The notes beneath the pieces were generated by a model. It was not told the DNA's origin and ran no database searches. It saw nothing but the letters and a program-made list of their open reading frames with translations. This document shows positions 13,039 to 64,000 of a DNA stretch of 64,000 bases, one piece after another. This stretch comes from Eubacteriales bacterium (GTDB lineage Bacteria > Bacillota > Clostridia > Oscillospirales > CAG-272), in assembly GCA_045532215.1 (NCBI GenBank), contig JAZSFM010000033.1, forward strand, positions 2,128 through 66,127. Reading direction: 5' to 3'. The stretch's first letter is position 1. Each line of letters opens with the position of its first letter. The position numbers and the translations under genes are program-made.

Positions 13039-15618
13039 GTGAAGAAAAAGCTTACCATTGGCATCCTCGCGCACGTTGATGCAGGGAAAACAACGCTCTC
13101 GGAAGCGATGCTTTATTTGTGTGGAAAAATTCGAACCATCGGCCGTGTTGACCATCGCAATACCTATCTTGACACCAACGCAGTGGAACGCGAGCGCGGC
13201 ATTACTGTTTTTTCAAAGCAAGCGCGATTTTCCACACCCGTGTGCGATTTTATTCTGCTCGACACCCCCGGACACGTGGATTTTTCAGCCGAAGCCGAGC
13301 GCACGCTGACTCTCCTTGATTACGCCATTTTGGTAGTGAGTGCAGCCGACGGTGTGCAAAATCACACCCGCACACTCTGGCAACTGTTGGAGTATTACCA
13401 CGTTCCTACCTTCCTTTTTGTCAACAAAACCGATATTTCCATAAAACTTGCCGAGGAAATGGAAGAGGAGCTTGCAAATGCACTCTCACCACGTTGCGTG
13501 GCCTTTTTTGAGGCGCAAAACGACAGCGAACGAGACGAAAAGTTGGCAATGGCGGATGAAGCGTTTTTGGAATCCTTTTCGGCAGGTGAAACCATCACCA
13601 ACGAGGAAATTGCCACAGCAGTCGTTGAGCGTCGGCTCTTCCCTACTCTGTTCGGCTCTGCTCTGCGCCTGACAGGTGTTGAGCACTTGTTGCACACTCT
13701 TGACCGTTTTACCCTCTCTCCCCTTTACGAAAGCACCGAATTTGGCGCACGTGTATTCAAAATTGCACGCGACGGCAACATACGCCTGACCTATCTCAAA
13801 GTGACGGGCGGCATTCTCCGCGCGCGTGACGAGATCACCTATTTTAGCGCGGACGGTCAAAAAATGCGCGAAAAAGTCAATCAGTTGCGTCTGTATTCGG
13901 GTGAAAAATTCGAGCAGGTCGACTCTGCCGAGGTTGGTGAAATCTGCGCTGTGGTCGGTCTTTCTGCTACATTTATCGGACAGGGGCTTGGATTTGAAAG
14001 TGATGCAGGTCGCCCCATACTCGAGCCCGTGCTTTCCTACCGTATCGCGCTCCCCAAGGACTGCGATCCGATGCTTTACTTCCCAAAGCTCAAAGAACTC
14101 GAAGAAGAAGAGCCCTCTTTGCACCTGTTGTGGAACAGTGAACTCGGGCAAATTGAAGTACGACTGATGGGTCAGGTGCAAATTGAACTCTTACGTCGTC
14201 TTATCTTAGACCGTTTTGGCATTGATTGTGAACTCGATGCAGGCAGAATTCTTTACAAAGAGAAACCCGCGGCACGTTCGCTCGGCATCGGACACTTTGA
14301 GCCGCTCCGTCACTATGCCGAGGTACAGCTCCTCATCGAGCCGCGCCCTGCGGGCTCGGGGCTCTCCTTTGACGTGCATCTACCCCCAAATGCACTTGAC
14401 CTAAATTGGCAACGCTTAATTCTCTTTAACCTGTATGAAAAAGTTCACCGCGGAACGCTCATTGGCGCGATGCTGACCGATGCAAAAATCACGCTTGTTG
14501 CGGCACGTGCGCATCTAAAACACACCGAGGGTGGCGATTTTCGCGAGGCAACCTTGCGCGCGGTTCGTCAAGGATTGATGCAATCAGGATGTGTTTTGCT
14601 CGAACCCTATTACAAATTCCGCATTGATCTCCCATCCTCTTTTGTGGGGCGTGCAATGTCGGATTTGCAAATGCGCGCGGCAACTTTTGAAGTTGAAAGC
14701 GCAACAGATGAAAGAACCGTAATCGCAGGTCGCGCACCCGTTGCAACGCTTCACGATTATCCACGAGAGCTCATTTCCTACACGCGTGGCGAGGGGCATA
14801 TTTCTTGCACGTCTGACGGTTACGAACCCTGCCACAATCAAGAAGAAGTGGTTACTGTCGCTCACTATGACCCCGTTGCAGACCCCGAAAACACTCCACA
14901 CTCTGTTTTTTGCGAGCACGGAGCAGGTGTTGTTGTTCCTTGGAATGAGGTGGAAGCGTGGAAGCACATTGAGGCGGACGTTTCGCTTGCCGAAAGTGCT
15001 GCCAACATTCTACCCGCTCCGCGCAAGCTTGCCAATAAATATCAACTCAGCGATGACGAAATCGAAGCTTTGATGTTGCGCTCCTTTGGCCCCATTCGAC
15101 GCCGTCAATATAGCGAGAAACGCATCAATGCTGCCAAAGAAGAGAAGAAACGCCCCCACAAAAAACCACAACTGCAAAGGCATATGGTCATTGTGGATGG
15201 CTACAACGTCATTTGGGCGTGGGACTCTTTGCGCGAGGTGGCAGAGTTCAGCTTGGAAAAAGCTCGCGAGACACTCATGGATATTTTGAGCAACTACGTC
15301 GCCTTTACCAAAACCGAATTGACGCTTGTGTTTGATGCCTATCTCGTTCCCGACGGTGCGGGCTCAGAAATCTCTCACGATGGCTACCGTATCGTCTATA
15401 CCAAAGAAAATCAAACGGCCGATGCCTACATTGAAAAAATGATGCATGAGCTCGGCCCCAACTACAACATTCGCATGGTTTCGGGTGACAAGCTCTTGCA
15501 GTTCTCTGCCGTTCACTCGGGTATCTTGCGCGTCACCGCCGCCGAATTTGAAGCCGAGGTCACTGCTGTTGGCGAAGAAATCACCGACTTTATTAAAAAA
15601 CTTGCTCAAAAGCAATAA
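13039..15618 (+). CDS. TetM/EF-G-like translational GTPase fused to a C-terminal YacP/Rae1-type NYN (PIN-like) nuclease domain (859 aa)
   Basis: GTG start with AAGGAG upstream. G motifs AHVDAGKTT, DTPGH, NKTD. The C-terminal VIVDGYNVIWAW...VFDAYLV...YTKENQTADAYIEK resembles B. subtilis Rae1/YacP. Confidence 0.8.
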   Translation: MKKKLTIGILAHVDAGKTTLSEAMLYLCGKIRTIGRVDHRNTYLDTNAVERERGITVFSKQARFSTPVCDFILLDTPGHVDFSAEAERTLTLLDYAILVVSAADGVQNHTRTLWQLLEYYHVPTFLFVNKTDISIKLAEEMEEELANALSPRCVAFFEAQNDSERDEKLAMADEAFLESFSAGETITNEEIATAVVERRLFPTLFGSALRLTGVEHLLHTLDRFTLSPLYESTEFGARVFKIARDGNIRLTYLKVTGGILRARDEITYFSADGQKMREKVNQLRLYSGEKFEQVDSAEVGEICAVVGLSATFIGQGLGFESDAGRPILEPVLSYRIALPKDCDPMLYFPKLKELEEEEPSLHLLWNSELGQIEVRLMGQVQIELLRRLILDRFGIDCELDAGRILYKEKPAARSLGIGHFEPLRHYAEVQLLIEPRPAGSGLSFDVHLPPNALDLNWQRLILFNLYEKVHRGTLIGAMLTDAKITLVAARAHLKHTEGGDFREATLRAVRQGLMQSGCVLLEPYYKFRIDLPSSFVGRAMSDLQMRAATFEVESATDERTVIAGRAPVATLHDYPRELISYTRGEGHISCTSDGYEPCHNQEEVVTVAHYDPVADPENTPHSVFCEHGAGVVVPWNEVEAWKHIEADVSLAESAANILPAPRKLANKYQLSDDEIEALMLRSFGPIRRRQYSEKRINAAKEEKKRPHKKPQLQRHMVIVDGYNVIWAWDSLREVAEFSLEKARETLMDILSNYVAFTKTELTLVFDAYLVPDGAGSEISHDGYRIVYTKENQTADAYIEKMMHELGPNYNIRMVSGDKLLQFSAVHSGILRVTAAEFEAEVTAVGEEITDFIKKLAQKQ

Positions 15619-21732: not shown

Positions 21733-23520
21733 TTATTCGTCTGACTCGTTCGAAAAAATAAGCTTATACAAATTGGAATAGTAATCCCAATTCTCTGCTT
21801 TTTGGATACTTTCCCATTCTTCGGGAGTGCCATCAAAGATAATTTCACGCAATTCCCAGCCGTAAGCGAGTGCTTCTCTGCAAATATATTGCAAGTTGTT
21901 GGGGAGAGTAACTCGCAACAGAGTGGTGGAAGCAAAAAACAAATGCTCGCAAAGCCCTATGGTATCGCTGCGCAAAACAACTTCTTCCATTCCCTTATCG
22001 AAGTCAACCGCCCATTTGCCAACGTAGGAAACACCGTTTTCCACTTGGAGCAAAGCATTACAATTTTCAAAAGCATCGCCGCCAATATGCGTAACACTTT
22101 CGGGAATCGTCAATTCACTCAAATTTTTGCAATCGGAAAAAGCACCGCTGCCAATGAAGGTAACACTTTCGGGAATATCGATGCGATACAAATTTGCGCA
22201 ACCTGAAAATACACCTGCTGCTATCTTTTCGAGTCCTTGCGAGAGGTGGACATTTTCCAGCTTCCAGCACTGTGAAAATGCAAAACTATCAATAGAGGTA
22301 ACGCTATCGGGAATATCAATGCTTTTCAGGGTTGAACATTGCGAAAACGCATTTCCCCCGATGCTTTTCAGCCCTTGCGGCAAGGTGACGTTTACAAGCT
22401 TTGTGCAATAGCCAAAGCAGAAAAAAGGAATCTCTTCTATTCCTACGGGCAAAACAATACTTGCCAAACTACTGCAGTTAAAAAATGCATATTCGCCTAT
22501 GCTTGTTACACCGGAGGGAATGGTGATGCTTTCGAGTCTTGTGCAAGAAGAGAAAGCAGATTCGCCAATACTTTTCAATCCGTCGGGAAGAATGATACTT
22601 TCAAGGTTGGAACAATAATTAAACACCTTGGGTTCCAATACGGTAATTCCCTTGGGTATTATAACGCTTTTCAAGTTGTAGCAAGAATCAAACGCGCTCT
22701 CACCGATTCGAGTAACACTTTGCGGAATGTGGATGCTTTTGAGTTCGTCACAGTTGTAAAACGCTCGGGGGCCGATTTCCACCAACGTATCGGGAAGTAT
22801 GATTTCTTCAAGATTTTTACACCACCGAAAAGCGCGCTCACTGATAACCGTAACAGTTCGGGGAAGTGTGATGCTTTTCAGTGTTTCACAATCCTCAAAC
22901 GCCCCCACCATAATAGACGTAACGTGATAACCGCAGAAGTTTTCGGGAACGATAACATTCTCGTCGGTGCAGTTACCGATGCCTGCTACCGAGAAGGTTT
23001 TGCCATCGGGATTGATGGCATAAGCAAGCCCTACCGAACCCGTTGCGGGGATGAGTTCCTCATCAAGCTTTGCACCGCAATGCTCACAGAACTGACATTT
23101 CAGTCCGGGTTCTCTTGCATCGGGATCCTCGGGTGTGGGAATTTTGATGGTTGGTTCTCTTTCAACCACCCAAGCACCTGCAAAATGCGGCAAAAGAGCA
23201 ACTACTCTCATCTCACTCTCTCCACATGCACAAAGACGTGTCTCCTCTCCATTTTCGGAGCAGGTTGCATCTTTGGTTATTTGCCATTCACCAAAAATAT
23301 GATTGTGCAAAGGGAGCGTGAGCTCGGGAGGGGTGGGATCATCGGGTTGCAACCAAAGCACTGCACCAATGATAACAGCTACCATAAGACAAAAGCAAGC
23401 CGCAAGCGTTCCCCATTTGACCCAATTTTGCGCCACGTGTCGCCTTTTTTGAGGTGCTGCATCTAAAATCCATTGCGGATCAATGTCTCGCAACGCATCA
23501 AAAATATTCTTGTCGTTCAT
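21733..23520 (-). CDS. Single-pass membrane protein, probable anti-sigma factor, with a Cys-rich module and a BspA-type leucine-rich-repeat ectodomain (595 aa)
   Basis: ATGA overlap with the sigma gene. Transmembrane helix WGTLAACFCLMVAVIIGAVLWL. About 14 repeats of IPxSVTxIGxxAFxxCxxLxSI. Confidence 0.7.
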   Translation of the reverse strand: MNDKNIFDALRDIDPQWILDAAPQKRRHVAQNWVKWGTLAACFCLMVAVIIGAVLWLQPDDPTPPELTLPLHNHIFGEWQITKDATCSENGEETRLCACGESEMRVVALLPHFAGAWVVEREPTIKIPTPEDPDAREPGLKCQFCEHCGAKLDEELIPATGSVGLAYAINPDGKTFSVAGIGNCTDENVIVPENFCGYHVTSIMVGAFEDCETLKSITLPRTVTVISERAFRWCKNLEEIILPDTLVEIGPRAFYNCDELKSIHIPQSVTRIGESAFDSCYNLKSVIIPKGITVLEPKVFNYCSNLESIILPDGLKSIGESAFSSCTRLESITIPSGVTSIGEYAFFNCSSLASIVLPVGIEEIPFFCFGYCTKLVNVTLPQGLKSIGGNAFSQCSTLKSIDIPDSVTSIDSFAFSQCWKLENVHLSQGLEKIAAGVFSGCANLYRIDIPESVTFIGSGAFSDCKNLSELTIPESVTHIGGDAFENCNALLQVENGVSYVGKWAVDFDKGMEEVVLRSDTIGLCEHLFFASTTLLRVTLPNNLQYICREALAYGWELREIIFDGTPEEWESIQKAENWDYYSNLYKLIFSNESDE

Positions 23521-47385: not shown

Positions 47386-49539
47386 TTATTGGGCTACGTA
47401 GTTATAATGAACAGTAGCGTTTGTTAGCGCAGAGTTATCCTCGCCAATGGTTACGTTGCCCCATTGCTCGGCACTTCCCTTGTAATATACGTTTGCAAGT
47501 GCGTTGCAGGAAAGAAATGCACCGTCGCTGATTCTTGTTACACTTGTGGGAATGACGATCTCCGTCAGCTTTGTGCAGGAGTCGAAGGTATTGCCCAAAA
47601 TTTTGACAACTCCATTGGGAATGGCAATGCTTTGCAAGTTTGAGCAATACTCAAACGCACAAGAACCAATGCTCGTCACGCTTGCGGGAAGCGCGACACT
47701 TGCAAGATTATAACAATGGCCGAATGCTCTGCTTTCAATTTTGGTAACCGAGTCAGGAATTGTTACGCTGGTAAGCTTGGTGCAATCATGGAACGCATTC
47801 TCGCCGATGGTAGTTACTCTGTACCAAGTTCCCTCACTCTCAAAAACAGCAGGGATAACGAGATTTTCACCTTCGACACCGGTGTAGCCAACCAACTCGC
47901 GGTTTTCGGCGGTAACGGTAAAAGCGGTGGGGGTAACGGTTTGACTATAGGAATCACCGCAAGGGCAAGTATATGTCGTGTAGCCATCTTCGGTTGCGGT
48001 GGGGGGAGTAACTACAGAGGTGTAGCTGTGTTCCCCTATAGCCGGAACAATTTCTTGTGCTACAAGAATTTCACAGCAAACATCGCAATGACTACCTTCC
48101 GTCAGTCCTGTTTTCGTGCAAGTGGGTGCAACCGCTTCGTCGATTATTTCGGTGTGTCCGTTTGCTTTTACGATTGTTTGTGCAATGAGAACTTCCCCAC
48201 AAACGCCACAATGCTTGCCTTCTGTCAAACCGGTTTCCGTGCAAGTGGGTGTAACCATTTCGTCAATTACTTCGGTGTGTCCGTTTACTTTTACGATTGT
48301 TTGTGCAATGAGAACTTCATTGCAAATGCCGCAATGCTTCCCCTCGGTCAAACCTGTTTCGGTACAGGTAGCAGCTACCGCCGCATCAACAACCTCGGTG
48401 TGACCAAGAGCAATGATTGTAAGGGTTTCGGTATATCCGCACTCAGTACAGTATCTTTGCTTGATTCCGCTTGCTATACAAGTTGCCTCTTTGAGGGTGA
48501 ACCACTCACCGAACGTATGCTCAACCGTGGGCGGATCTTGCCATACGGTGCCTACGTTTACGGGATTTTCGGGATCATCGGAATAGGTAATCCACAAACA
48601 ACCATCAATAATTTCTACTTTGATAATGCCGTGACCTGCCTCGCCTTGAGGTCCTTGTTCACCCTGCGGTCCTTGAGGACCTACGGGCCCTTGTTCGCCT
48701 TGTTCACCTTGGGGACCTTGAGGACCTACGGGACCCTGTTCTCCTTGTTCCCCTTGTGGACCTTGAGGTCCTACGGGGCCTTGTTCGCCCTGTTCACCCT
48801 GCGGTCCTTGTGGACCTACAGGACCTTGTTCGCCCTGCTCACCTTGGGGACCTTGAGGACCTACAGGACCTTGTTCGCCTTGTTCACCCTGCGGCCCTTG
48901 AGGACCTACGGGTCCTTGTTCGCCTTGTTCACCCTGAGGGCCTTGCGGTCCTTGAGGGCCTACGGAACCTTGTTCTCCTTGTTCACCCTGCGGTCCTTGA
49001 GGACCTACGGGACCTTGTTCTCCTTGTTCACCCTGCGGTCCTTGAGGACCTACAGGACCTTGTTCGCCCTGTTCACCCTGCGGTCCTTGAGGACCTACGG
49101 GGCCTTGCTCGCCTTGTTCACCTTGGGGACCTTGAGGACCTACGGGACCCTGTTCTCCTTGTTCCCCTTGTGGACCTTGAGGACCTACGGGGCCTTGCTC
49201 ACCGATTGCGCCGGTTTCGCCCTTATCGCCTTTGTCTCCGGTCGCTTTTACGCCAAGAGATACCCAAGTATTTCCTCCGTCGTAAGAAGCTTCCCAAATA
49301 TTTTCGTCATTGATTCGCAGTTGCGGAGTGATGCCATCTTTGCCATCTTCTCCGTTTTGTCCATCTTCTCCATTTTCGCCCTTTTCGCCGGGGACACCTT
49401 GGAGACCTCGTTCTCCTTGAGGCCCCTGTTCACCTTGAAGTCCTTGTAGACCTATAGAACTGCTCTCGCAAGATGCAAATGCGCCTACACAGCACAAAAG
49501 CAAAGCAAGTGTTAATAGCAAAGGAAGAATTTTTCCCAT
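47386..49539 (-). CDS. Surface lipoprotein (717 aa): collagen-like G-x-y tracts, four to five Cys-rich modules, C-terminal BspA-type LRR
   Basis: Signal peptide and lipobox [26 protein letters not shown] about 12 times. LRR repeats IPxSVTxIxxxAFxxCxxL. Confidence 0.85.
48628..49239. repeat. Coding 45-bp tandem repeat array (collagen-like triple-helix tract)
   Basis: CCTTGAGGACCTACGGG(A/G)CCTTGTTC(G/T)CCTTGTTCACC-type units recur about a dozen times. Confidence 0.9.
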
Positions 49540-54753: not shown

Positions 54754-54829
54754 CTGGGTGTGGCGCAGCTGGTAGCGCGCTACCTTGGGGTGGTAGAGGC
54801 CGCAAGTTCAAGTCTTGTCACTCAGACCA
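54754..54829 (+). tRNA. tRNA-Pro (anticodon GGG), CCA encoded
   Basis: CTGGGTGTGGCGCAGCTGGTAGCGCGCTACCTTGGGGTGGTAGAGGCCGCAAGTTCAAGTCTTGTCACTCAGACCA. Anticodon loop TTGGGGT. Confidence 0.9.
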
Positions 54830-54830
54830 A

Positions 54831-54877
54831 ACACGACTCTGTTGAACCGTAGGGAACAACAGAGTCGTGTTTTTTTA
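54831..54877 (+). terminator. Rho-independent terminator after tRNA-Pro(GGG)
   Basis: 14-bp stem ACACGACTCTGTTG...CAACAGAGTCGTGT plus TTTTTTT. Confidence 0.85.
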
Positions 54878-55030
54878 TTATACTATAAGCAGAAAGATGA
54901 GCACATAGTAGTGTCCTAGGCATTTATCGTTATTTTATCATTTCAAAATTAGCGTGTGTTTCTCGTTTTGCAAAATGTCCGAGAAGTACTAAATTCTCCC
55001 AAAAGATACGTCAATATATGCCTATATTCC

Positions 55031-55243
55031 TCATTTTTCGCCAATGCTCATTTTTTTTATACTTCTTTTAATACTCCTTGTCAAGACTAACGGCGAAGCG
55101 CATGGCTGCGGATTTTCTTCGCTTATTTTGGGGATTTCACCTCGTATACAACCAGTGTTAGAATCATAATAAGTAACCGCTATTGTTTTTTCAAACCGAG
55201 TATTACACAATAATCGATTGTACATTTTTTCTAATGTTCTCAT
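55031..55243 (-). CDS. Hypothetical small protein (70 aa), coupled to the upstream 2TM protein gene
   Basis: ATG at 55243 with an AAGAGGT SD lying across the stop of the upstream gene. Confidence 0.5.
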   Translation of the reverse strand: MRTLEKMYNRLLCNTRFEKTIAVTYYDSNTGCIRGEIPKISEENPQPCASPLVLTRSIKRSIKKMSIGEK

Positions 55244-55254
55244 AATATACCTCT

Positions 55255-56226
55255 TTATTCTATTTCTTGAATCATATTAACAAGATGCTCTTCTAAAAAT
55301 GGATAAAGCAGTTGAGCGAAAATAGTAGCGAATGTGGTAAGTGCATCTACTAATTCTTGCTCATTATCTGTGAATGTTCTTAAGCTATCTACGCATAAGA
55401 ATGCAAGATAATGATCATTGCCTTTTGTATTGTCCTTACCAAATTCTTTTATTACATTAGAAACAAATTGCTTCTTCTGCTTTATGGGGATCACTATCGT
55501 CGATTTGTAATATCTAAGATATCGTGGATCTGGATTGCGATATTCCTTGCCGCAATTTTCGTAACTTTTTTTGAGCTCCTCTAGATTTCTTGACACCCAG
55601 GGAAAACCACAATTTTTTTGGCTTGTATCTAATATTTCTAGAAAACTCGTATTATTTGATACTTTTTGACAATTATCATCCTTATCTGACCGTTCAGTAT
55701 AGTTCTCACATGCTCTTGCGATCGTTTGTGTTGACCAAGTACTGGGATCATCATCTAAAATATCCAGTGCCTTTATTTCCTTTATACACACACCAAACGA
55801 ACATTTCTCATCCAAATATATTTGAAAAAGCAATTCAAAGCACTTTTTGATTTTTTCACAAACACTATTCAAATGAACTTTTAATGCTGAACGTGATATC
55901 TTATTCTCGCTTTTTATAAATGCGGAAACCAATCCAACACTGCTAGCATATTGTGAAAGTTGATCACATAGTTGCCTCATTCCTTTTGCTTGATGTTCTA
56001 TAACCGTCGCTTTCACTTGTTTATGTAAAAACCATTTTCGAACAGTATAGAAAATAAGAATCATTATACCAATAAAAGTGAAAATCCAACATGAAAATGC
56101 CAAATATTCATTTTTTAAAAAACCACTTACAACACTTACTATTGTTCCAACTATAGTAAAAATGAAAGATACTAATAGCGTGTAAGGATTATTTACGAAA
56201 TTGTTAATTCTGTCTTTGTTGTTCAT
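55255..56226 (-). CDS. Two-transmembrane protein with an about 230-aa cytoplasmic domain (possibly GAF-like), 323 aa
   Basis: Start at MNNKDR (AGAGGA SD). Transmembrane helices LLVSFIFTIVGTIVSVVSGF and FSCWIFTFIGIMILIFY. C-terminal YKSTIVIPI...YLAFLCVDS pattern. Confidence 0.6.
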   Translation of the reverse strand: MNNKDRINNFVNNPYTLLVSFIFTIVGTIVSVVSGFLKNEYLAFSCWIFTFIGIMILIFYTVRKWFLHKQVKATVIEHQAKGMRQLCDQLSQYASSVGLVSAFIKSENKISRSALKVHLNSVCEKIKKCFELLFQIYLDEKCSFGVCIKEIKALDILDDDPSTWSTQTIARACENYTERSDKDDNCQKVSNNTSFLEILDTSQKNCGFPWVSRNLEELKKSYENCGKEYRNPDPRYLRYYKSTIVIPIKQKKQFVSNVIKEFGKDNTKGNDHYLAFLCVDSLRTFTDNEQELVDALTTFATIFAQLLYPFLEEHLVNMIQEIE

Positions 56227-56384
56227 AATACATCCTCTGCATTCGAAAATTTGCGCTTTTGTGAATAAATAATTATTTTTTTGCAACAATTGTATTGATT
56301 TACTATTCCACCTTTTTGCGGAATTCTTCTGCGCACTTAAAATTTACACAACCAAATCAACCCTTAAATTATTAGCACATTTAT

Positions 56385-56413
56385 ATTATATCAGATATTT
56401 TTGATTATCTCAA
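56385..56413 (-). promoter_or_regulatory. Promoter of the 2TM-protein operon
   Basis: On the minus strand: TTGAGA (56413-56408), 17 nt, TATAAT (56390-56385). Confidence 0.6.
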
Positions 56414-56692
56414 TACTTGTTTTTCATTTTTTTGAGGATTTTATGATTGTTATGTAAAATTTATTGATTTTTAGTATTTTCACAAAATTGTTATTTCCTT
56501 TAAAATTGTGAAAAATTCAACCTCAGCCTATCCGTTTTCGTGATATTTGTCAACATATACAAATGATACTATATCTATATAACCATTTTTTGATGGAGCA
56601 TATGTTTGGGTTTCAAAGCACCATTTGCTAGTTTTTCATAGTAGCAGCATAAACCTTTTATAAAGATAATAAATCAATTTTTTTGTTTTTGG

Positions 56693-58723
56693 CTATTGGA
56701 GTGCCCTATTAATTTTTATCATAAGGTTTTCTGCTTGACCTATCTCGTGAGGTTGCAAATCATTCAAACTATGATCGCGAGACCAACGAATAAATGCCTT
56801 AGCTAACTTGTATTTGGAAAAATCAGTCTTAGCAACACTTTGTATAATGTCGACTATCGGGCGCGTTGGTTGTGATTGTGCAATTGCAATGGCATCCCAC
56901 CCACATTGCTCCTTTGCTATGGTTAGGAGTGTGTCGCGTAACAAATCCTCTATTTCTGAATTTGATACTGAACCTGTATACACATCCTTTGTTCTAAGAA
57001 TTTTTTTTGCCCCTACCGCGTTTACCAATGTATCTTGTTTGGCAGCTTTATCTCCTTCGGCATCAGAATCTAATAATGCTGCAATTTTCATATTTTGCGC
57101 ATGCAGTATCGTAGCAAAATAAACCACTTTACTTGCACAATTAGCTGGAATCAAAGCAATTTGGTCGTTAATACCGTTTTTTCCACCAGCTTTTAATAAG
57201 GCCGAGAGACTTTCCAAATACCACATATCCGTCAATCCTTCAAGTAGAAGATTCTTCTCATGGAAGAATAAACTTTGAGCTAAATCATATCCTAATGCTT
57301 CTTGAAGTGGCAGCATTGCACCGCTATCATTTGCGGTTAACGAAACGTTAACTTTTGTACCTATTGTTCTATCTGTCATTTCGATCACACGAACTTTGTC
57401 CAATTCATTTGCTCCAACAAGAAACGGCGAATGTGTAGTATAGATTGTCTGATTTTTTGTACTAAGTTTCGAAAGCGTTTCACGGAATTCTGCTTGCTTC
57501 AAAGCGTGCAGACTCTGACCCGGTTCATCTAAAAGAAGAATCGCATTTTTATGCTTATCTGATGCTTCCGCGAAGAACACCGCATAAAACGAAACCATCC
57601 ATTGAAAACCTTCGGAACGTTGGTCCAACTCAACTTCAACCCCCAAATCATCTTCAACAACAACTTTCAGATATTGTCCATCGGCTTTGATTCTTAATTT
57701 GTTAGCATCTCGACCATCTTGCTTAGGATTCCATATTTCGCAAATCGAGTTTGTAAGTCGAATAGTTGCGGCATTCAATTGATAGTCACGTTTATCCAAT
57801 TGCTTTCGGTACTCTTCGTACTGGTCTGGTCTGCTTATATCATATCTAGAAACATCTCCTGCGGCAGCTAATTCTTTTGCAGTAAATCCTAAAAACTTAA
57901 GCAAGCATGAATTTCCATAATCATACTGTTTATCATCTAAAATATTTCTTTCCAAGCGTTCTGCAAGTTTTTTTAAATGCAAAACCGGTCTAATTCTAAA
58001 ATAATTGCTAAAAAGTATAAACTTGGGCATTCGAGTTTTAAATATCTCAAGTATTCTCTTGCGTTCTGCTGGTTTTTCTAACGCTTCAAGCAATCGATCA
58101 TAACGATTTTCTTCCGTTGTATTACCATCTGCCAAGTATGACACATTGCCTTTAATCCATGTAAAAAGTTGTTTGGCTTTCTCAATAGATATTATGCTCT
58201 CCATTTGTAATCCTGATACAACTTCATCATATCCACCTTGAATTTTTGTTTGCTTCTCCTCAAGTTCTCCATTTGTTAAGCTAGTATTCTTATAATGCTG
58301 GCAGAGTTTCAAAAGATCTTTCTCGATTTCTGAAAAGGCCAATGGTGGAGAAACATTCTCAAGTTTGTACCATGCAGAGTTATCCAAATTGCGTCCAAAA
58401 ATATATATCGCATTATGGTAGGCTTCAGGCAATTCCACTTTGTCTTCATCCTCTAAGGAAAAATGCCCTTCTACCACGGTGAATTTGCTTGGGTCTATTC
58501 TCCCTTTCTTAATATCTTCATCGTATTTTGAACGAGGATAATCTCTAAGAGGATCAAATTTATCAACGCCCTCTGGTGGATTCATTTTTTGTAAAGCATG
58601 TAATACTGCAGTCTTACCGGCTTCATTAGGACCTACTAAAATAGTCTTGTCTTCTTCAATATCAAAATAACCAGTATCAATGATACTCCGGTATCCTTGC
58701 ACTCTTGCTTTTACTAAACGCAT
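56693..58723 (-). CDS. OLD-family nuclease: ABC/SMC-like ATPase plus C-terminal TOPRIM domain (676 aa)
   Basis: Walker A GPNEAGKT, signature-like RSEGFQW, Walker B ILLLDEPGQSLH, YTTHSP. TOPRIM residues LLLEGLTD and LLDSDAEGD. AAGGAG SD. Confidence 0.8.
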   Translation of the reverse strand: MRLVKARVQGYRSIIDTGYFDIEEDKTILVGPNEAGKTAVLHALQKMNPPEGVDKFDPLRDYPRSKYDEDIKKGRIDPSKFTVVEGHFSLEDEDKVELPEAYHNAIYIFGRNLDNSAWYKLENVSPPLAFSEIEKDLLKLCQHYKNTSLTNGELEEKQTKIQGGYDEVVSGLQMESIISIEKAKQLFTWIKGNVSYLADGNTTEENRYDRLLEALEKPAERKRILEIFKTRMPKFILFSNYFRIRPVLHLKKLAERLERNILDDKQYDYGNSCLLKFLGFTAKELAAAGDVSRYDISRPDQYEEYRKQLDKRDYQLNAATIRLTNSICEIWNPKQDGRDANKLRIKADGQYLKVVVEDDLGVEVELDQRSEGFQWMVSFYAVFFAEASDKHKNAILLLDEPGQSLHALKQAEFRETLSKLSTKNQTIYTTHSPFLVGANELDKVRVIEMTDRTIGTKVNVSLTANDSGAMLPLQEALGYDLAQSLFFHEKNLLLEGLTDMWYLESLSALLKAGGKNGINDQIALIPANCASKVVYFATILHAQNMKIAALLDSDAEGDKAAKQDTLVNAVGAKKILRTKDVYTGSVSNSEIEDLLRDTLLTIAKEQCGWDAIAIAQSQPTRPIVDIIQSVAKTDFSKYKLAKAFIRWSRDHSLNDLQPHEIGQAENLMIKINRALQ

Positions 58724-59163
58724 AATTACATCTCCTTTTTATTTAAAAATTTTTTCAATTTTAAAATGCTTACTAAACATCATCCTTACATAAAATGCAA
58801 ATGGGATAATTTTGTTTTACGGCTCAAATAAAAAACATAAGAACTATAAATCTTTACTTTTATTATGGCCTAACACATGTTAATGAATCTCCTGTTTTTT
58901 GCCCTCCGTTGTGTCTATCGTAGCACAGTTCTCGTATATGTCAAAGTCTAAAAAAAAAAGCGTTAAATTTGAATAAATTAGTTTGAAAGTCAAGTAGCAA
59001 TACTCGGCTTTTTTCTTTTTATGCTGTTTTTTTCAGAGAAGCTTGTCCTGTAATTGGCTCGACACTTTGACATATACAATCTTTTGTTAGAAGATACCTT
59101 GTTTCACCGAACGGTGCTTCTCTGCCCCTGCCGGAAGGCAAATAAAAAATAAGGAGAATAAGA

Positions 59164-63590: not shown

Positions 63591-64000
63591 TTATTGATAC
63601 TTACTTGCTTGCAAGTTGAACAGCTCGGCGTATTTACCGTTCTTTTTCAAAAGCTCAAAGTGTGAGCCTTGCTCAATGATGTGCCCATCATCGATGACGA
63701 GGATCTTATCGGCAAGTGTTGTATTGGAAAGACGGTGTGAGATGGTAACCGAGCTTTTCCCCTCGCTCAGACGGTAGAGTTGCTCGAAAATGCGATCCTC
63801 CGAAATAGGATCAAGCGCGGCAGAGGGCTCGTCAAGAATCATATACTCGCTATCCTTAAAATAAGCTCTCGCAAGTCCTACAAGCTGCCATTGACCGCCC
63901 GAAAGGTCTTTTGCATTGTCGGCATAATAGCGACCGAGAACACTGTCAAAGCCATTTTCCCAATCCTTGATGATCTCGCTTACGCCGCTGATGTCGCAGG
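63591..64000 (-). CDS. ABC exporter ATP-binding domain, C-terminal part (gene continues beyond the window end)
   Basis: Hand translation upstream of the track ORF gives LSGGQWQLVGLARAYFKDSEYMILDEPSAALD (signature plus Walker B). H-loop TISHRL. Confidence 0.85.
   Translation of the reverse strand, partial: CDISGVSEIIKDWENGFDSVLGRYYADNAKDLSGGQWQLVGLARAYFKDSEYMILDEPSAALDPISEDRIFEQLYRLSEGKSSVTISHRLSNTTLADKILVIDDGHIIEQGSHFELLKKNGKYAELFNLQASKYQ

What the first reader, a model, noticed from the sequence alone, without database searches (positions are those of the whole stretch)
56693..58723. Stand-alone OLD-family ATPase-TOPRIM nuclease as the anchor of a candidate defence locus
The 676-aa protein has an ABC/SMC-type ATPase (GPNEAGKT ... 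RSEGFQW ... ILLLDEPGQSLH ... YTTHSP) interrupted by a long helical insert. Its C-terminal TOPRIM domain carries the catalytic Glu (LLLEGLTD) and DxD (LLDSDAEGD). Established knowledge: OLD-family proteins are anti-phage effectors (P2 Old, Gabija GajA, PARIS-related). Here there is no UvrD-like GajB partner and no separate DUF4435 gene. The nearest same-strand neighbour is an uncharacterised 2TM protein operon 466 bp downstream with its own promoter. The protein may be a class-1-type solitary OLD, or part of an undescribed pairing.
Basis: partly seen in the sequence, partly recalled or inferred. Interest (0 to 1): 0.6.

Follow-up and report, generated by a model that had tools for sequence, protein, structure and literature searches.

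The report
Stand-alone OLD nuclease on mobile element
This gene encodes an intact single-gene OLD-type ATPase–nuclease, most likely an anti-phage defence protein carried as cargo on a mobile element of a gut Clostridia bacterium; the proposed partnership with its membrane-protein neighbour is not conserved, so this is an ordinary but untested member of a known kind.

Summary

It is an OLD-family protein. The best PADLOC model is Old. The best solved-structure match, by family profile and by fold, is Thermus scotoductus Class 1 OLD (6P74), well ahead of GajA, PtuA and AriA.

No UvrD helicase, DUF4435 gene or reverse transcriptase was found where I looked, and the Rfam scan gave only the tRNA. 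Across 55 homolog loci the flanking genes vary: restriction-modification modules, other ATPases, TnpV. DNA homology stops at the ORF ends, so the gene moves as a single-gene cassette.

The downstream 2TM protein (GAF-like domain) and its 70-aa partner form a separate, rare two-gene cassette. It occurs without OLD in five other contexts. The closest OLD relative (92% identity) has a different gene in that slot. The "undescribed pairing" is not supported.

This is a Class-1-type solitary OLD from a large, uncharacterised "long" clade of about 650-700 aa, above the 500-600 aa filter used in a published Class 1 phylogeny. Its trigger and substrate are unknown.

The parts
56693..58723 (-). OLD-family ATPase-TOPRIM gene, 676 aa plus stop codon
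   Evidence: ORF listing. Pfam AAA_15, AAA_21 and OLD-like_TOPRIM. PADLOC best model is Old, 2e-26. AF2 model has pLDDT 87.4. Foldseek top hit is 6P74.
58610..58633 (-). Walker A / P-loop, GPNEAGKT, residues 31-38
   Evidence: G31, G36 and K37 are invariant in the 41-sequence alignment A2, which reaches down to 23-30% identity.
57731..58348 (-). Helical insertion inside the ATPase (residues ~126-331). Presumed dimerisation or recognition domain. Most variable part of the protein.
   Evidence: AF2 secondary structure shows helices 134-231 and 250-331. Identity among 120 close homologs is 40-58% for residues 101-225, against 85-98% in the catalytic cores. DNA homology to more distant homologs drops out between window 58030 and 58370.
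57599..57619 (-). ABC signature-like motif, RSEGFQW, residues 369-375
   Evidence: S370 and G372 are at least 90% conserved in A2.
57506..57541 (-). Walker B and D-loop, ILLLDEPGQSLH, residues 395-406
   Evidence: D399 is invariant. E400 and H406 are at least 90% conserved. The stretch aligns to TsOLD, P2 Old and YbjD.
57425..57442 (-). H-loop, YTTHSP, residues 428-433
   Evidence: H431 is at least 90% conserved.
56984..57268 (-). TOPRIM nuclease core, residues ~486-580. Carries E495, D552 and D554 (metal A) and D499 (metal B).
   Evidence: Pfam OLD-like_TOPRIM over 486-554. E495 is invariant. D499, D552 and D554 are at least 90% conserved. The profile alignment to TsOLD puts E495 opposite the Glu of the TsOLD VEGYGD motif and the DSD opposite the TsOLD DED motif. 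Roles are assigned from PMC7049728.
56696..56959 (-). C-terminal helical bundle, residues 589-676. Carries E590-x-E592 (putative second metal-B ligands) and conserved K637.
   Evidence: AF2 helices 591-674. E592 is invariant and K637 is at least 90% conserved. The E-x-E pattern resembles P2 Old D541/E543. This assignment is an inference.
58917..58944 (-). Promoter-like site upstream of the OLD gene (TTGACA, 16 nt spacer, TACGAT, with TG)
   Evidence: Consensus scan, 10 of 12 matches. This is a pattern match only.
55255..56226 (-). Adjacent but independent gene: 323-aa protein with two N-terminal membrane helices and a GAF-like domain
   Evidence: No Pfam, NCBIfam or PHROG hit, and only a marginal PADLOC 'gop' hit (E 6e-4). 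Only 15 homologs were found. AF2 pLDDT is 85. Foldseek returns GAF domains at E about 2e-3. It is absent from the loci of other OLD homologs.
55031..55243 (-). 70-aa ORF, the conserved partner of the 2TM/GAF-like gene (not of OLD)
   Evidence: tblastn finds it directly downstream of the 2TM homolog in L015-L021, and gene calls place a 54-62 aa ORF in the same position in L073-L075.
54754..54829 (+). tRNA-Pro (GGG) at the edge of the low-GC island. Likely integration site of the element.
   Evidence: ARAGORN and Rfam. GC falls from about 0.45 to 0.30-0.40 beyond it. The integration role is inferred.

Best explanation
The gene encodes a solitary, Class-1-type OLD-family enzyme. It has an ABC/SMC-like ATPase with a large, fast-evolving helical insert, fused to a TOPRIM two-metal nuclease and a short C-terminal helical bundle. 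It is a self-contained single-gene cassette (ORF plus ribosome-binding site) sitting in a variable cargo slot of an integrative or conjugative element next to tRNA-Pro in a Clostridia genome. Most likely it is an anti-phage, or more generally anti-invader, defence protein. By analogy with Thermus OLD, the helical inserts would mediate dimerisation. An infection cue, read through the variable insert or the ATPase cycle, would license the TOPRIM site to cut nucleic acid. The substrate would be either DNA, by nicking or 5'-3' degradation as in Ts and Vc OLD, or tRNA anticodon stems as in P2 Old. The result would be a block of invader replication or abortive infection. Shown here: domain architecture, conserved catalytic residues, family affinity, absence of conserved partners, and carriage on mobile elements. 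Inferred: the defence role, oligomerisation, trigger and substrate.
For: Architecture and motifs. Family affinity: PADLOC Old scores 2e-26, against GajA 3e-15 and retron I-B ATPase-Toprim 2e-10. The C-terminal part alone hits Old at 7e-8 and gives no AriB hit. The family profile scores TsOLD 6P74 at 4e-22, against PtuA 7e-10, GajA 1e-8 and AriA 4e-7. The Foldseek top hit is 6P74 at 1.1e-11. hhalign against P2 Old gives 97.7% probability and E 1.9e-12; against YbjD it gives 88.9%. Solitary status: 55 homolog loci have varied neighbours. DNA homology is confined to the ORF plus about 20-40 bp upstream. OLD and upstream-gene divergences are incongruent. Relatives at 50-53% identity on Sinorhizobium and Paracoccus plasmids are lone genes. 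Mobile-element setting: PcfJ, PcfK and DUF7222 upstream, tRNA-Pro and a GC drop at the edge. Homologs sit beside TnpV, Mob, integrase and restriction-modification genes. Functional precedents for Class 1 OLDs: PMC12392090, PMC12445682, PMC13261556, PMC7049728.
Against: There is no experimental evidence for this clade. The protein is 676 aa, outside the 500-600 aa range used to delimit Class 1 in PMC12392090. Unlike TsOLD it has a C-terminal helical bundle. Global TM-scores to 6P74 are low (0.29 and 0.37), as is common for multi-domain models. In most homolog loci the gene lies 14-94 bp after a same-strand restriction-modification-type gene, so co-transcription or functional coupling there is not excluded. 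At least one OLD class, archaeal Cran1, is not a defence protein (PMC12796447). The TOPRIM domain of YbjD is dispensable for its phenotype (PMC13261556).
Confidence: 0.8

Rival explanations
1. OLD and the downstream 2TM/GAF-like plus 70-aa cassette form a new three-gene defence system, with a nuclease sensor and a membrane effector.
For: All three genes are on the same strand and adjacent. No terminator-like site lies between them. All three share the low GC content. The L016 contig shows the same arrangement, but it is the same element.
Against: The nearest OLD homolog, at 92% identity, has another gene in that slot, and homology breaks at the OLD stop. No 2TM homolog occurs in the other OLD loci. 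The cassette occurs without OLD in L017, L018, L019-21, L073-74 and L075. It has its own promoter-like site scoring 11 of 12. OLD has thousands of homologs and the 2TM protein has 15.
Confidence: 0.04
2. This OLD clade is an accessory nuclease of restriction-modification-like modules (methyltransferase, then a DUF262/HNH or other endonuclease, then OLD). The window copy would be a detached remnant of such an operon.
For: In 16 of 55 loci OLD directly follows an EcoRI-like methyltransferase and a GmrSD_N/HNH gene. Other loci place it 14-94 bp after HsdS/type IIG genes, after two C5-methyltransferases plus a 382-aa gene, or after ATPase_2/DUF234. The association recurs even where the upstream pair is only 39% identical while OLD is 92% identical.
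Against: The upstream modules are of unrelated types. The window, L013, L007-12 and the Sinorhizobium and Paracoccus plasmids have no such gene. Divergences are incongruent and homology is limited to the ORF, which indicates independent cassette movement. Many of the 16 loci are copies of one element. Clustering with restriction-modification genes is what defence islands generally look like.
Confidence: 0.1
3. The protein is not a defence factor. It serves the mobile element or the host in DNA maintenance, for example replication, segregation or entry exclusion, as the archaeal OLD Cran1 serves the cell cycle.
For: It is encoded divergently from conjugative-element genes (PcfJ, PcfK, DUF7222). 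Plasmid relatives lie near ParB or metal-resistance genes. There is a non-defence OLD precedent (PMC12796447).
Against: Distribution is patchy and horizontal, and the position within elements is variable. Neighbours are enriched in restriction-modification, Abi and toxin-antitoxin genes. The insert is hypervariable, typical of genes in arms races. The gene is not conserved within the element backbone and is truncated in L015.
Confidence: 0.06

Closest known systems
Class 1 OLD nucleases (Thermus scotoductus OLD, PDB 6P74; phage P2 Old; Vibrio cholerae Vc OLD; E. coli YbjD/OldB)
   Same: [quoted passage not shown] The gene stands alone in variable neighbourhoods. TsOLD is the best PDB match by sequence profile (4e-22) and by fold (1.1e-11). 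P2 Old aligns at 97.7% probability.
   Different: It is 676 aa, against 528 (Ts), 586 (P2) and 552 (YbjD). The extra length lies mostly in a larger two-part helical insert, plus a C-terminal helical bundle of about 85 aa that TsOLD lacks. Identity to TsOLD over the Foldseek alignment is only 12%. The clade is usually embedded in defence islands on mobile elements, whereas a 2023 review describes Class 1 genes as not being near other defence genes. There are no functional data.
Gabija GajA (Class 2 OLD)
   Same: ATPase-TOPRIM fusion of similar overall size, with a C-terminal helical region after the TOPRIM domain. PADLOC GajA models hit at 1e-15 to 1e-10.
   Different: No UvrD-like GajB was found next to it in the window or in the homolog-locus neighbours that were annotated. 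The AF2 model shows no large helical insertion within the TOPRIM domain. Profile and fold matches to GajA are much weaker than to TsOLD (1e-8 against 4e-22; Foldseek rank 40).
PARIS AriA/AriB (Class 4) and retron I-B OLD (Class 3)
   Same: ABC ATPase of the AAA_15/AAA_21 type. These systems pair an ATPase with a TOPRIM nuclease.
   Different: The TOPRIM domain is fused rather than a separate DUF4435 protein, and the C-terminal part gives no AriB hit. No reverse transcriptase or retron RNA lies nearby. The PADLOC I-B ATPase-Toprim model scores only 2e-10.

Membership tests
OLD family (ATPase-TOPRIM nucleases) | N-terminal ABC-type ATPase with Walker A, signature, Walker B, D-loop and H-loop | tested here: met
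   Pfam AAA_15 1.4e-21 and AAA_21 1.7e-15. Motif positions and conservation. The fold matches OLD, SMC and PtuA ATPase heads.
OLD family (ATPase-TOPRIM nucleases) | C-terminal TOPRIM domain with the catalytic Glu and DxD | tested here: met
   PF20469 scores above its gathering threshold. E495 is invariant and D552/D554 are at least 90% conserved. These residues align to the TsOLD TOPRIM Glu and DxD motifs.
OLD family (ATPase-TOPRIM nucleases) | Metal-dependent nuclease and ATPase activities | not testable with these tools
   Needs biochemistry.
Class 1 OLD | Stand-alone gene with no conserved partner (no UvrD helicase, reverse transcriptase/ncRNA or separate DUF4435 gene) | tested here: met
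   Window neighbours. The 55 homolog loci have heterogeneous neighbours. Homology is limited to the ORF.
Class 1 OLD | Closer in sequence and structure to Class 1 references than to Classes 2-4 | tested here: met
   TsOLD 4e-22 against GajA 1e-8, PtuA 7e-10 and AriA 4e-7. Foldseek rank 1 is 6P74. PADLOC Old is the best model. No formal phylogeny was built.
Class 1 OLD | Length about 500-600 aa, the operational cut-off used in published Class 1 surveys | tested here: not met
   The protein is 676 aa. Most full-length relatives listed among the best 150 hits are about 600-700 aa. The cut-off is quoted in PMC12392090. This is a working filter, not a mechanistic criterion.
Class 1 OLD | No C-terminal helical domain after the TOPRIM domain (as in TsOLD) | tested here: not met
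   The AF2 model has five helices over residues 591-674. TsOLD is described as lacking this domain in PMC7049728. Whether P2 Old has one was not tested.
Gabija (Class 2 OLD, GajA/GajB) | [quoted passage not shown] | tested here: not met
   The downstream gene is a 2TM/GAF-like protein. No helicase was seen among the annotated neighbours of the homolog loci.
PARIS (Class 4) | AriA ATPase together with an AriB DUF4435 TOPRIM protein | tested here: not met
   No DUF4435 or AriB hit for the C-terminal part or for the neighbours. The PADLOC 'AriA' hits appear to be generic AAA_15/AAA_21-type models, judging from their lengths of 373 and 304.
Retron type I-B (Class 3 OLD) | Adjacent reverse transcriptase and msr/msd non-coding RNA | tested here: not met
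   No reverse-transcriptase domain in the neighbours. No Rfam retron RNA in 54-60 kb.

The most novel reading that the evidence does not exclude
The long OLD clade (about 650-700 aa) is a functionally distinct sixth kind of OLD. Its enlarged, hypervariable two-part helical insert would be a direct sensor of invader proteins or nucleic acids. It would preferentially work as a back-up nuclease co-transcribed with restriction-modification modules on mobile elements, explaining its repeated placement 14-94 bp after methyltransferase/endonuclease genes. The window copy would then be an autonomous promoter-bearing derivative.
Probability: 0.12. Interest if true: 0.55.

Novelty: new member of a known kind. 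Interest (0 to 1): 0.3.

Why it matters
Solitary (Class 1) OLD proteins are the least understood branch of a widespread defence family. Only P2 Old, Vc OLD and YbjD have phenotypes, and their targets differ (tRNA or DNA nicking; YbjD's target is unknown).

This gene represents a large, cross-phylum clade: 757 representative clusters at E<=1e-30. It occurs on elements of gut Clostridia and on plasmids of Proteobacteria and Actinobacteria. Records label it only as 'AAA family ATPase'. Published Class 1 surveys that filter at 500-600 aa would miss it.

It would be a reasonable candidate for testing whether one OLD gene is enough for defence, and for finding which domain senses infection. It does not by itself reveal a new principle.

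Tried and rejected
1. Pairing with the 2TM operon. Rejected on context comparisons. I first counted L015 and L016 as independent OLD-less contexts. blastn then showed they are the same element as the window and include the OLD 3' end, so they were discarded as evidence.

2. Fused PARIS (AriA-AriB). Rejected. The C-terminal part matches Old and not AriB or DUF4435, and the AriA hits appear to be generic AAA_15/AAA_21-type models.

3. Gabija or retron membership. Rejected for lack of a helicase or a reverse transcriptase with its RNA.

4. MADS. Only a weak NCBIfam MAD3 hit (E 0.0019, far below the cut-off), so it was not pursued.

5. A conserved partner at deeper divergence. Sinorhizobium, Paracoccus and Microbacterium relatives have none in common. 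Only the Enterobacterales relatives at 30% identity share a 161-aa upstream gene, which has no Pfam hit.

6. The 629-aa gene after the 2TM cassette in L073. It is not OLD; it has a Peptidase_M78/IrrE-like domain.

7. Phage carriage. No relatives in IMG/VR, and only two weak hits in GenBank phages.

8. Exact-sequence look-up of the window protein. Not on record.

9. Direct repeats of the tRNA 3' end that would delimit the element. None were found within the window.
Full report
**Observation**

Window 56693..58723 on the minus strand is an uninterrupted 676-codon ORF. It has an AGGAG ribosome-binding site, and a promoter-like TTGACA-16-TACGAT site lies about 200 bp upstream.
- Walker A, residues 31-38.
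- ABC signature-like RSEGFQW, residues 369-375.
- Walker B and D-loop, residues 395-406.
- H-loop, residues 428-433.
- TOPRIM Glu495 and Asp499.
- DxD at residues 552-554.

Pfam reports AAA_15 over residues 1-436 (1.4e-21), AAA_21, and OLD-like_TOPRIM over 486-554, above its gathering score.

**What the protein is**

- PADLOC's best model is Old (2e-26). GajA models (about 1e-15 and weaker) and the retron I-B ATPase-Toprim model (2e-10) come next. The 'AriA' hits appear to be generic AAA_15/AAA_21-type models, judging from their lengths.
- The C-terminal 228 residues alone hit Old (7e-8) and give no AriB hit.
- Against PDB sequences, the single protein finds Thermus scotoductus Class 1 OLD (6P74) first.
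- A profile of 41 family members, down to about 25% identity, scores 6P74 at 4e-22. PtuA scores 7e-10, GajA 1e-8 and AriA 4e-7.
- An AlphaFold2 model has mean pLDDT 87.4. Its top Foldseek hit is 6P74 (E 1.1e-11), with GajA around rank 40.
- hhalign of the family profile against phage P2 Old gives 97.7% probability (E 1.9e-12). Against E. coli YbjD it gives 88.9%.
- In the 41-sequence alignment G31, G36, K37, D399, E495 and E592 are invariant. E400, H406, H431, D499, D552, D554 and K637 are at least 90% conserved.
- Mapped onto the published Ts and P2 OLD catalytic sets (PMC7049728), the metal-A ligands are E495, D552 and D554. D499 is one metal-B ligand. E590-x-E592 are the probable remaining metal-B ligands; this last assignment is an inference.

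**Anatomy**

The model shows the following layout:
- ATPase N-lobe, residues 1-125.
- A large two-part helical insertion, helices 134-231 and 250-331.
- ATPase C-lobe, residues 340-450.
- A compact TOPRIM core, residues 490-577, without a large internal insertion.
- A five-helix C-terminal bundle, residues 591-674.

Among 120 homologs at 70-92% identity, residues 101-225 are the most variable (40-58% identity). The catalytic cores are 85-98% identical. DNA similarity to more distant homologs drops out in the same segment.

**Context in the window**

- The gene lies in a low-GC stretch (0.30-0.40, against about 0.45 for the flanking DNA) that begins just after tRNA-Pro(GGG) at 54754-54829.
- Divergently upstream are genes typical of conjugative elements: a 99-aa ORF, DUF7222, PcfK and PcfJ. 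A DUF6514/HTH pair follows further on.
- The chromosomal side carries a two-component system (read from the sequence, not scanned) and membrane proteins.
- No UvrD helicase, DUF4435 or reverse-transcriptase domain was found in the flanking ORFs scanned, or in the ten ORFs scanned in the 1-26 kb part of the window.
- The Rfam scan of 54-60 kb found only the tRNA above threshold.

**Is there a partner?**

I collected 55 loci with homologs of 57-92% identity from assemblies, GTDB genomes and metagenomes and compared their neighbours.
- The commonest neighbour is TnpV, on the opposite strand downstream, in 20 of 55 loci. It is a marker of a mobilisable-element family.
- Next is an EcoRI-like methyltransferase plus GmrSD_N/HNH pair directly upstream, in 16 of 55 loci. 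Most of these are copies of one element.
- Other loci have Mrr plus type IIG/HsdS genes, two C5-methyltransferases plus an unknown 382-aa gene, ATPase_2/DUF234, or AAA_14/DUF4143 plus a type III restriction-modification system.
- Divergences are incongruent. Between L001 and L030 OLD is 92% identical but the HNH gene is 39%. Between L026 and L042 OLD is 89% identical and the upstream genes are unrelated.
- Nucleotide homology to the window starts 20-40 bp before the ATG and ends at the stop codon.
- Full-length relatives at 50-53% identity on Sinorhizobium and Paracoccus plasmids are lone genes annotated 'AAA family ATPase'.

The gene therefore moves as a single-gene cassette. By the context-based definition (PMC10568477, PMC12796447) it is a Class 1 OLD.

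**The 2TM neighbour**

- The 323-aa protein (55255..56226) has no Pfam, NCBIfam or PHROG match. Its only PADLOC hit is a marginal one to 'gop' (E 6e-4).
- Only 15 homologs were found among 5.8 billion proteins.
- The model (pLDDT 85) has two N-terminal helices read as membrane-spanning, a long helix, and a GAF-like alpha/beta domain. Foldseek hits to GAF domains are at E about 2e-3.
- A 54-83 aa ORF follows it in every locus. This pair occurs without OLD next to an integrase remnant (L017), TnpV (L018), HTH genes (L019-21), sigma-factor-like and unknown genes (L073-74), and a phage endolysin (L075).
- L015 and L016, which I first took as OLD-less contexts, are 98.8% identical to window 54913-57307. 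They are simply the same element.
- The OLD homolog closest to the window (L013, 92%) shares the upstream backbone but has an unrelated AAA_15/21 ATPase gene downstream. Homology ends about 16 nt before the OLD stop.

The two cassettes are independent occupants of a variable cargo slot.

**Mechanism**

The best-supported reading is an ATP-regulated, probably dimeric, TOPRIM two-metal nuclease acting as a single-gene immunity factor of the mobile element. The variable helical insert is the candidate recognition or dimerisation module. Class 1 precedents differ in trigger and substrate:
- P2 Old cuts tRNA anticodon stems after RecBCD inhibition (PMC12445682).
- Vc OLD nicks DNA independently of ATP (PMC12392090).
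- Ts OLD degrades DNA (PMC7049728).
- YbjD acts without its TOPRIM domain (PMC13261556).

The substrate here cannot be inferred from sequence.

**Comparison and novelty**

- The protein is a member of the OLD family. It meets the contextual and similarity criteria of Class 1.
- It fails two descriptive ones: the 500-600 aa length range and the absence of a C-terminal helical domain.
- It belongs to a large clade that is mostly 640-700 aa: 6846 representative clusters at E<=1e-3 and 757 at E<=1e-30.
- The clade is spread across Bacillota, Proteobacteria and Actinobacteria, on plasmids and integrative elements, and is rare in phages.
- Contrary to a 2023 review's remark that Class 1 genes are not near other defence genes, this clade often sits next to restriction-modification or other defence-type genes.

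I rate it a new member of a known kind, with modest interest (0.3). It is a sound candidate for testing solitary OLD defence in Gram-positive gut bacteria, but it is not a new principle.

Noticed in passing
window 55031-56226 (-); L017-L021, L073-L075: A rare two-gene cassette with only 15 homologs. It encodes a 2TM protein with a GAF-like domain (conserved motifs STQTIAR, NTSF, YxNPD, YYKSTIVVPI, FLCxDS) and a 54-83 aa partner. It is found next to TnpV, an integrase remnant or a phage endolysin, so it may be a membrane-acting cargo or defence module. Foldseek also gives a weak resemblance to the periplasmic domain of T4 holin T in its complex with antiholin RI (6pxe).
   Followed up: partly
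L013 3829-4314: In the closest relative of the element (OLD 92% identical), the slot downstream of OLD holds a different AAA_15/AAA_21-type ATPase gene. This slot is a variable cargo hotspot.
   Followed up: partly
L001-L006, L026, L030, L034-L041: A recurrent same-strand array of EcoRI-like methyltransferase(s), a GmrSD_N(DUF262)/HNH endonuclease and OLD. It persists even where the upstream pair is only 39% identical while OLD is 92% identical. It could be a preferred insertion site or a functional coupling.
   Followed up: partly
L069 4505-4990 and L070 4505-4990 (Enterobacter and Klebsiella plasmids): Distant relatives (30% identity) of the long OLD clade have a conserved 161-aa gene with no Pfam hit ending 10 bp before the OLD start. 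This may be a two-gene variant in Enterobacterales.
   Followed up: no
L015 1-700: A metagenomic copy of the same element has OLD truncated at about codon 486 by unrelated sequence, plus a 1-nt deletion. It is either a decaying copy or a chimeric assembly.
   Followed up: no
window 13039-15618 (+): A single 859-aa ORF combines EF-G-like GTPase domains (GTP_EFTU, EFG_IV, EFG_C) with a C-terminal YacP-like NYN nuclease domain. This is an unusual fusion.
   Followed up: no
window 54754-54872: tRNA-Pro(GGG) is followed at once by a perfect 16-bp inverted repeat (54829-54844 / 54857-54872). GC then drops, marking the edge of the acquired island. No repeat of the tRNA 3' end was found inside the window.
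   Followed up: partly
window 47386-49539 (-) and 21733-23520 (-): Surface-type proteins with BspA-type leucine-rich repeats. One also carries collagen triple-helix repeats.
   Followed up: no
window 63591-63842 (-): An 83-aa ORF resembling the C-terminal end of an ABC-transporter ATPase, judged by reading the sequence (no Pfam hit). It is probably a gene fragment inside the element.
   Followed up: no
L068 1543-4932 (Microbacterium plasmid): A 42%-identical OLD relative lies directly after a 1129-aa HEPN_Swt1-DUF499 protein and is flanked by IS3 elements. This is another defence-type neighbourhood.
   Followed up: no
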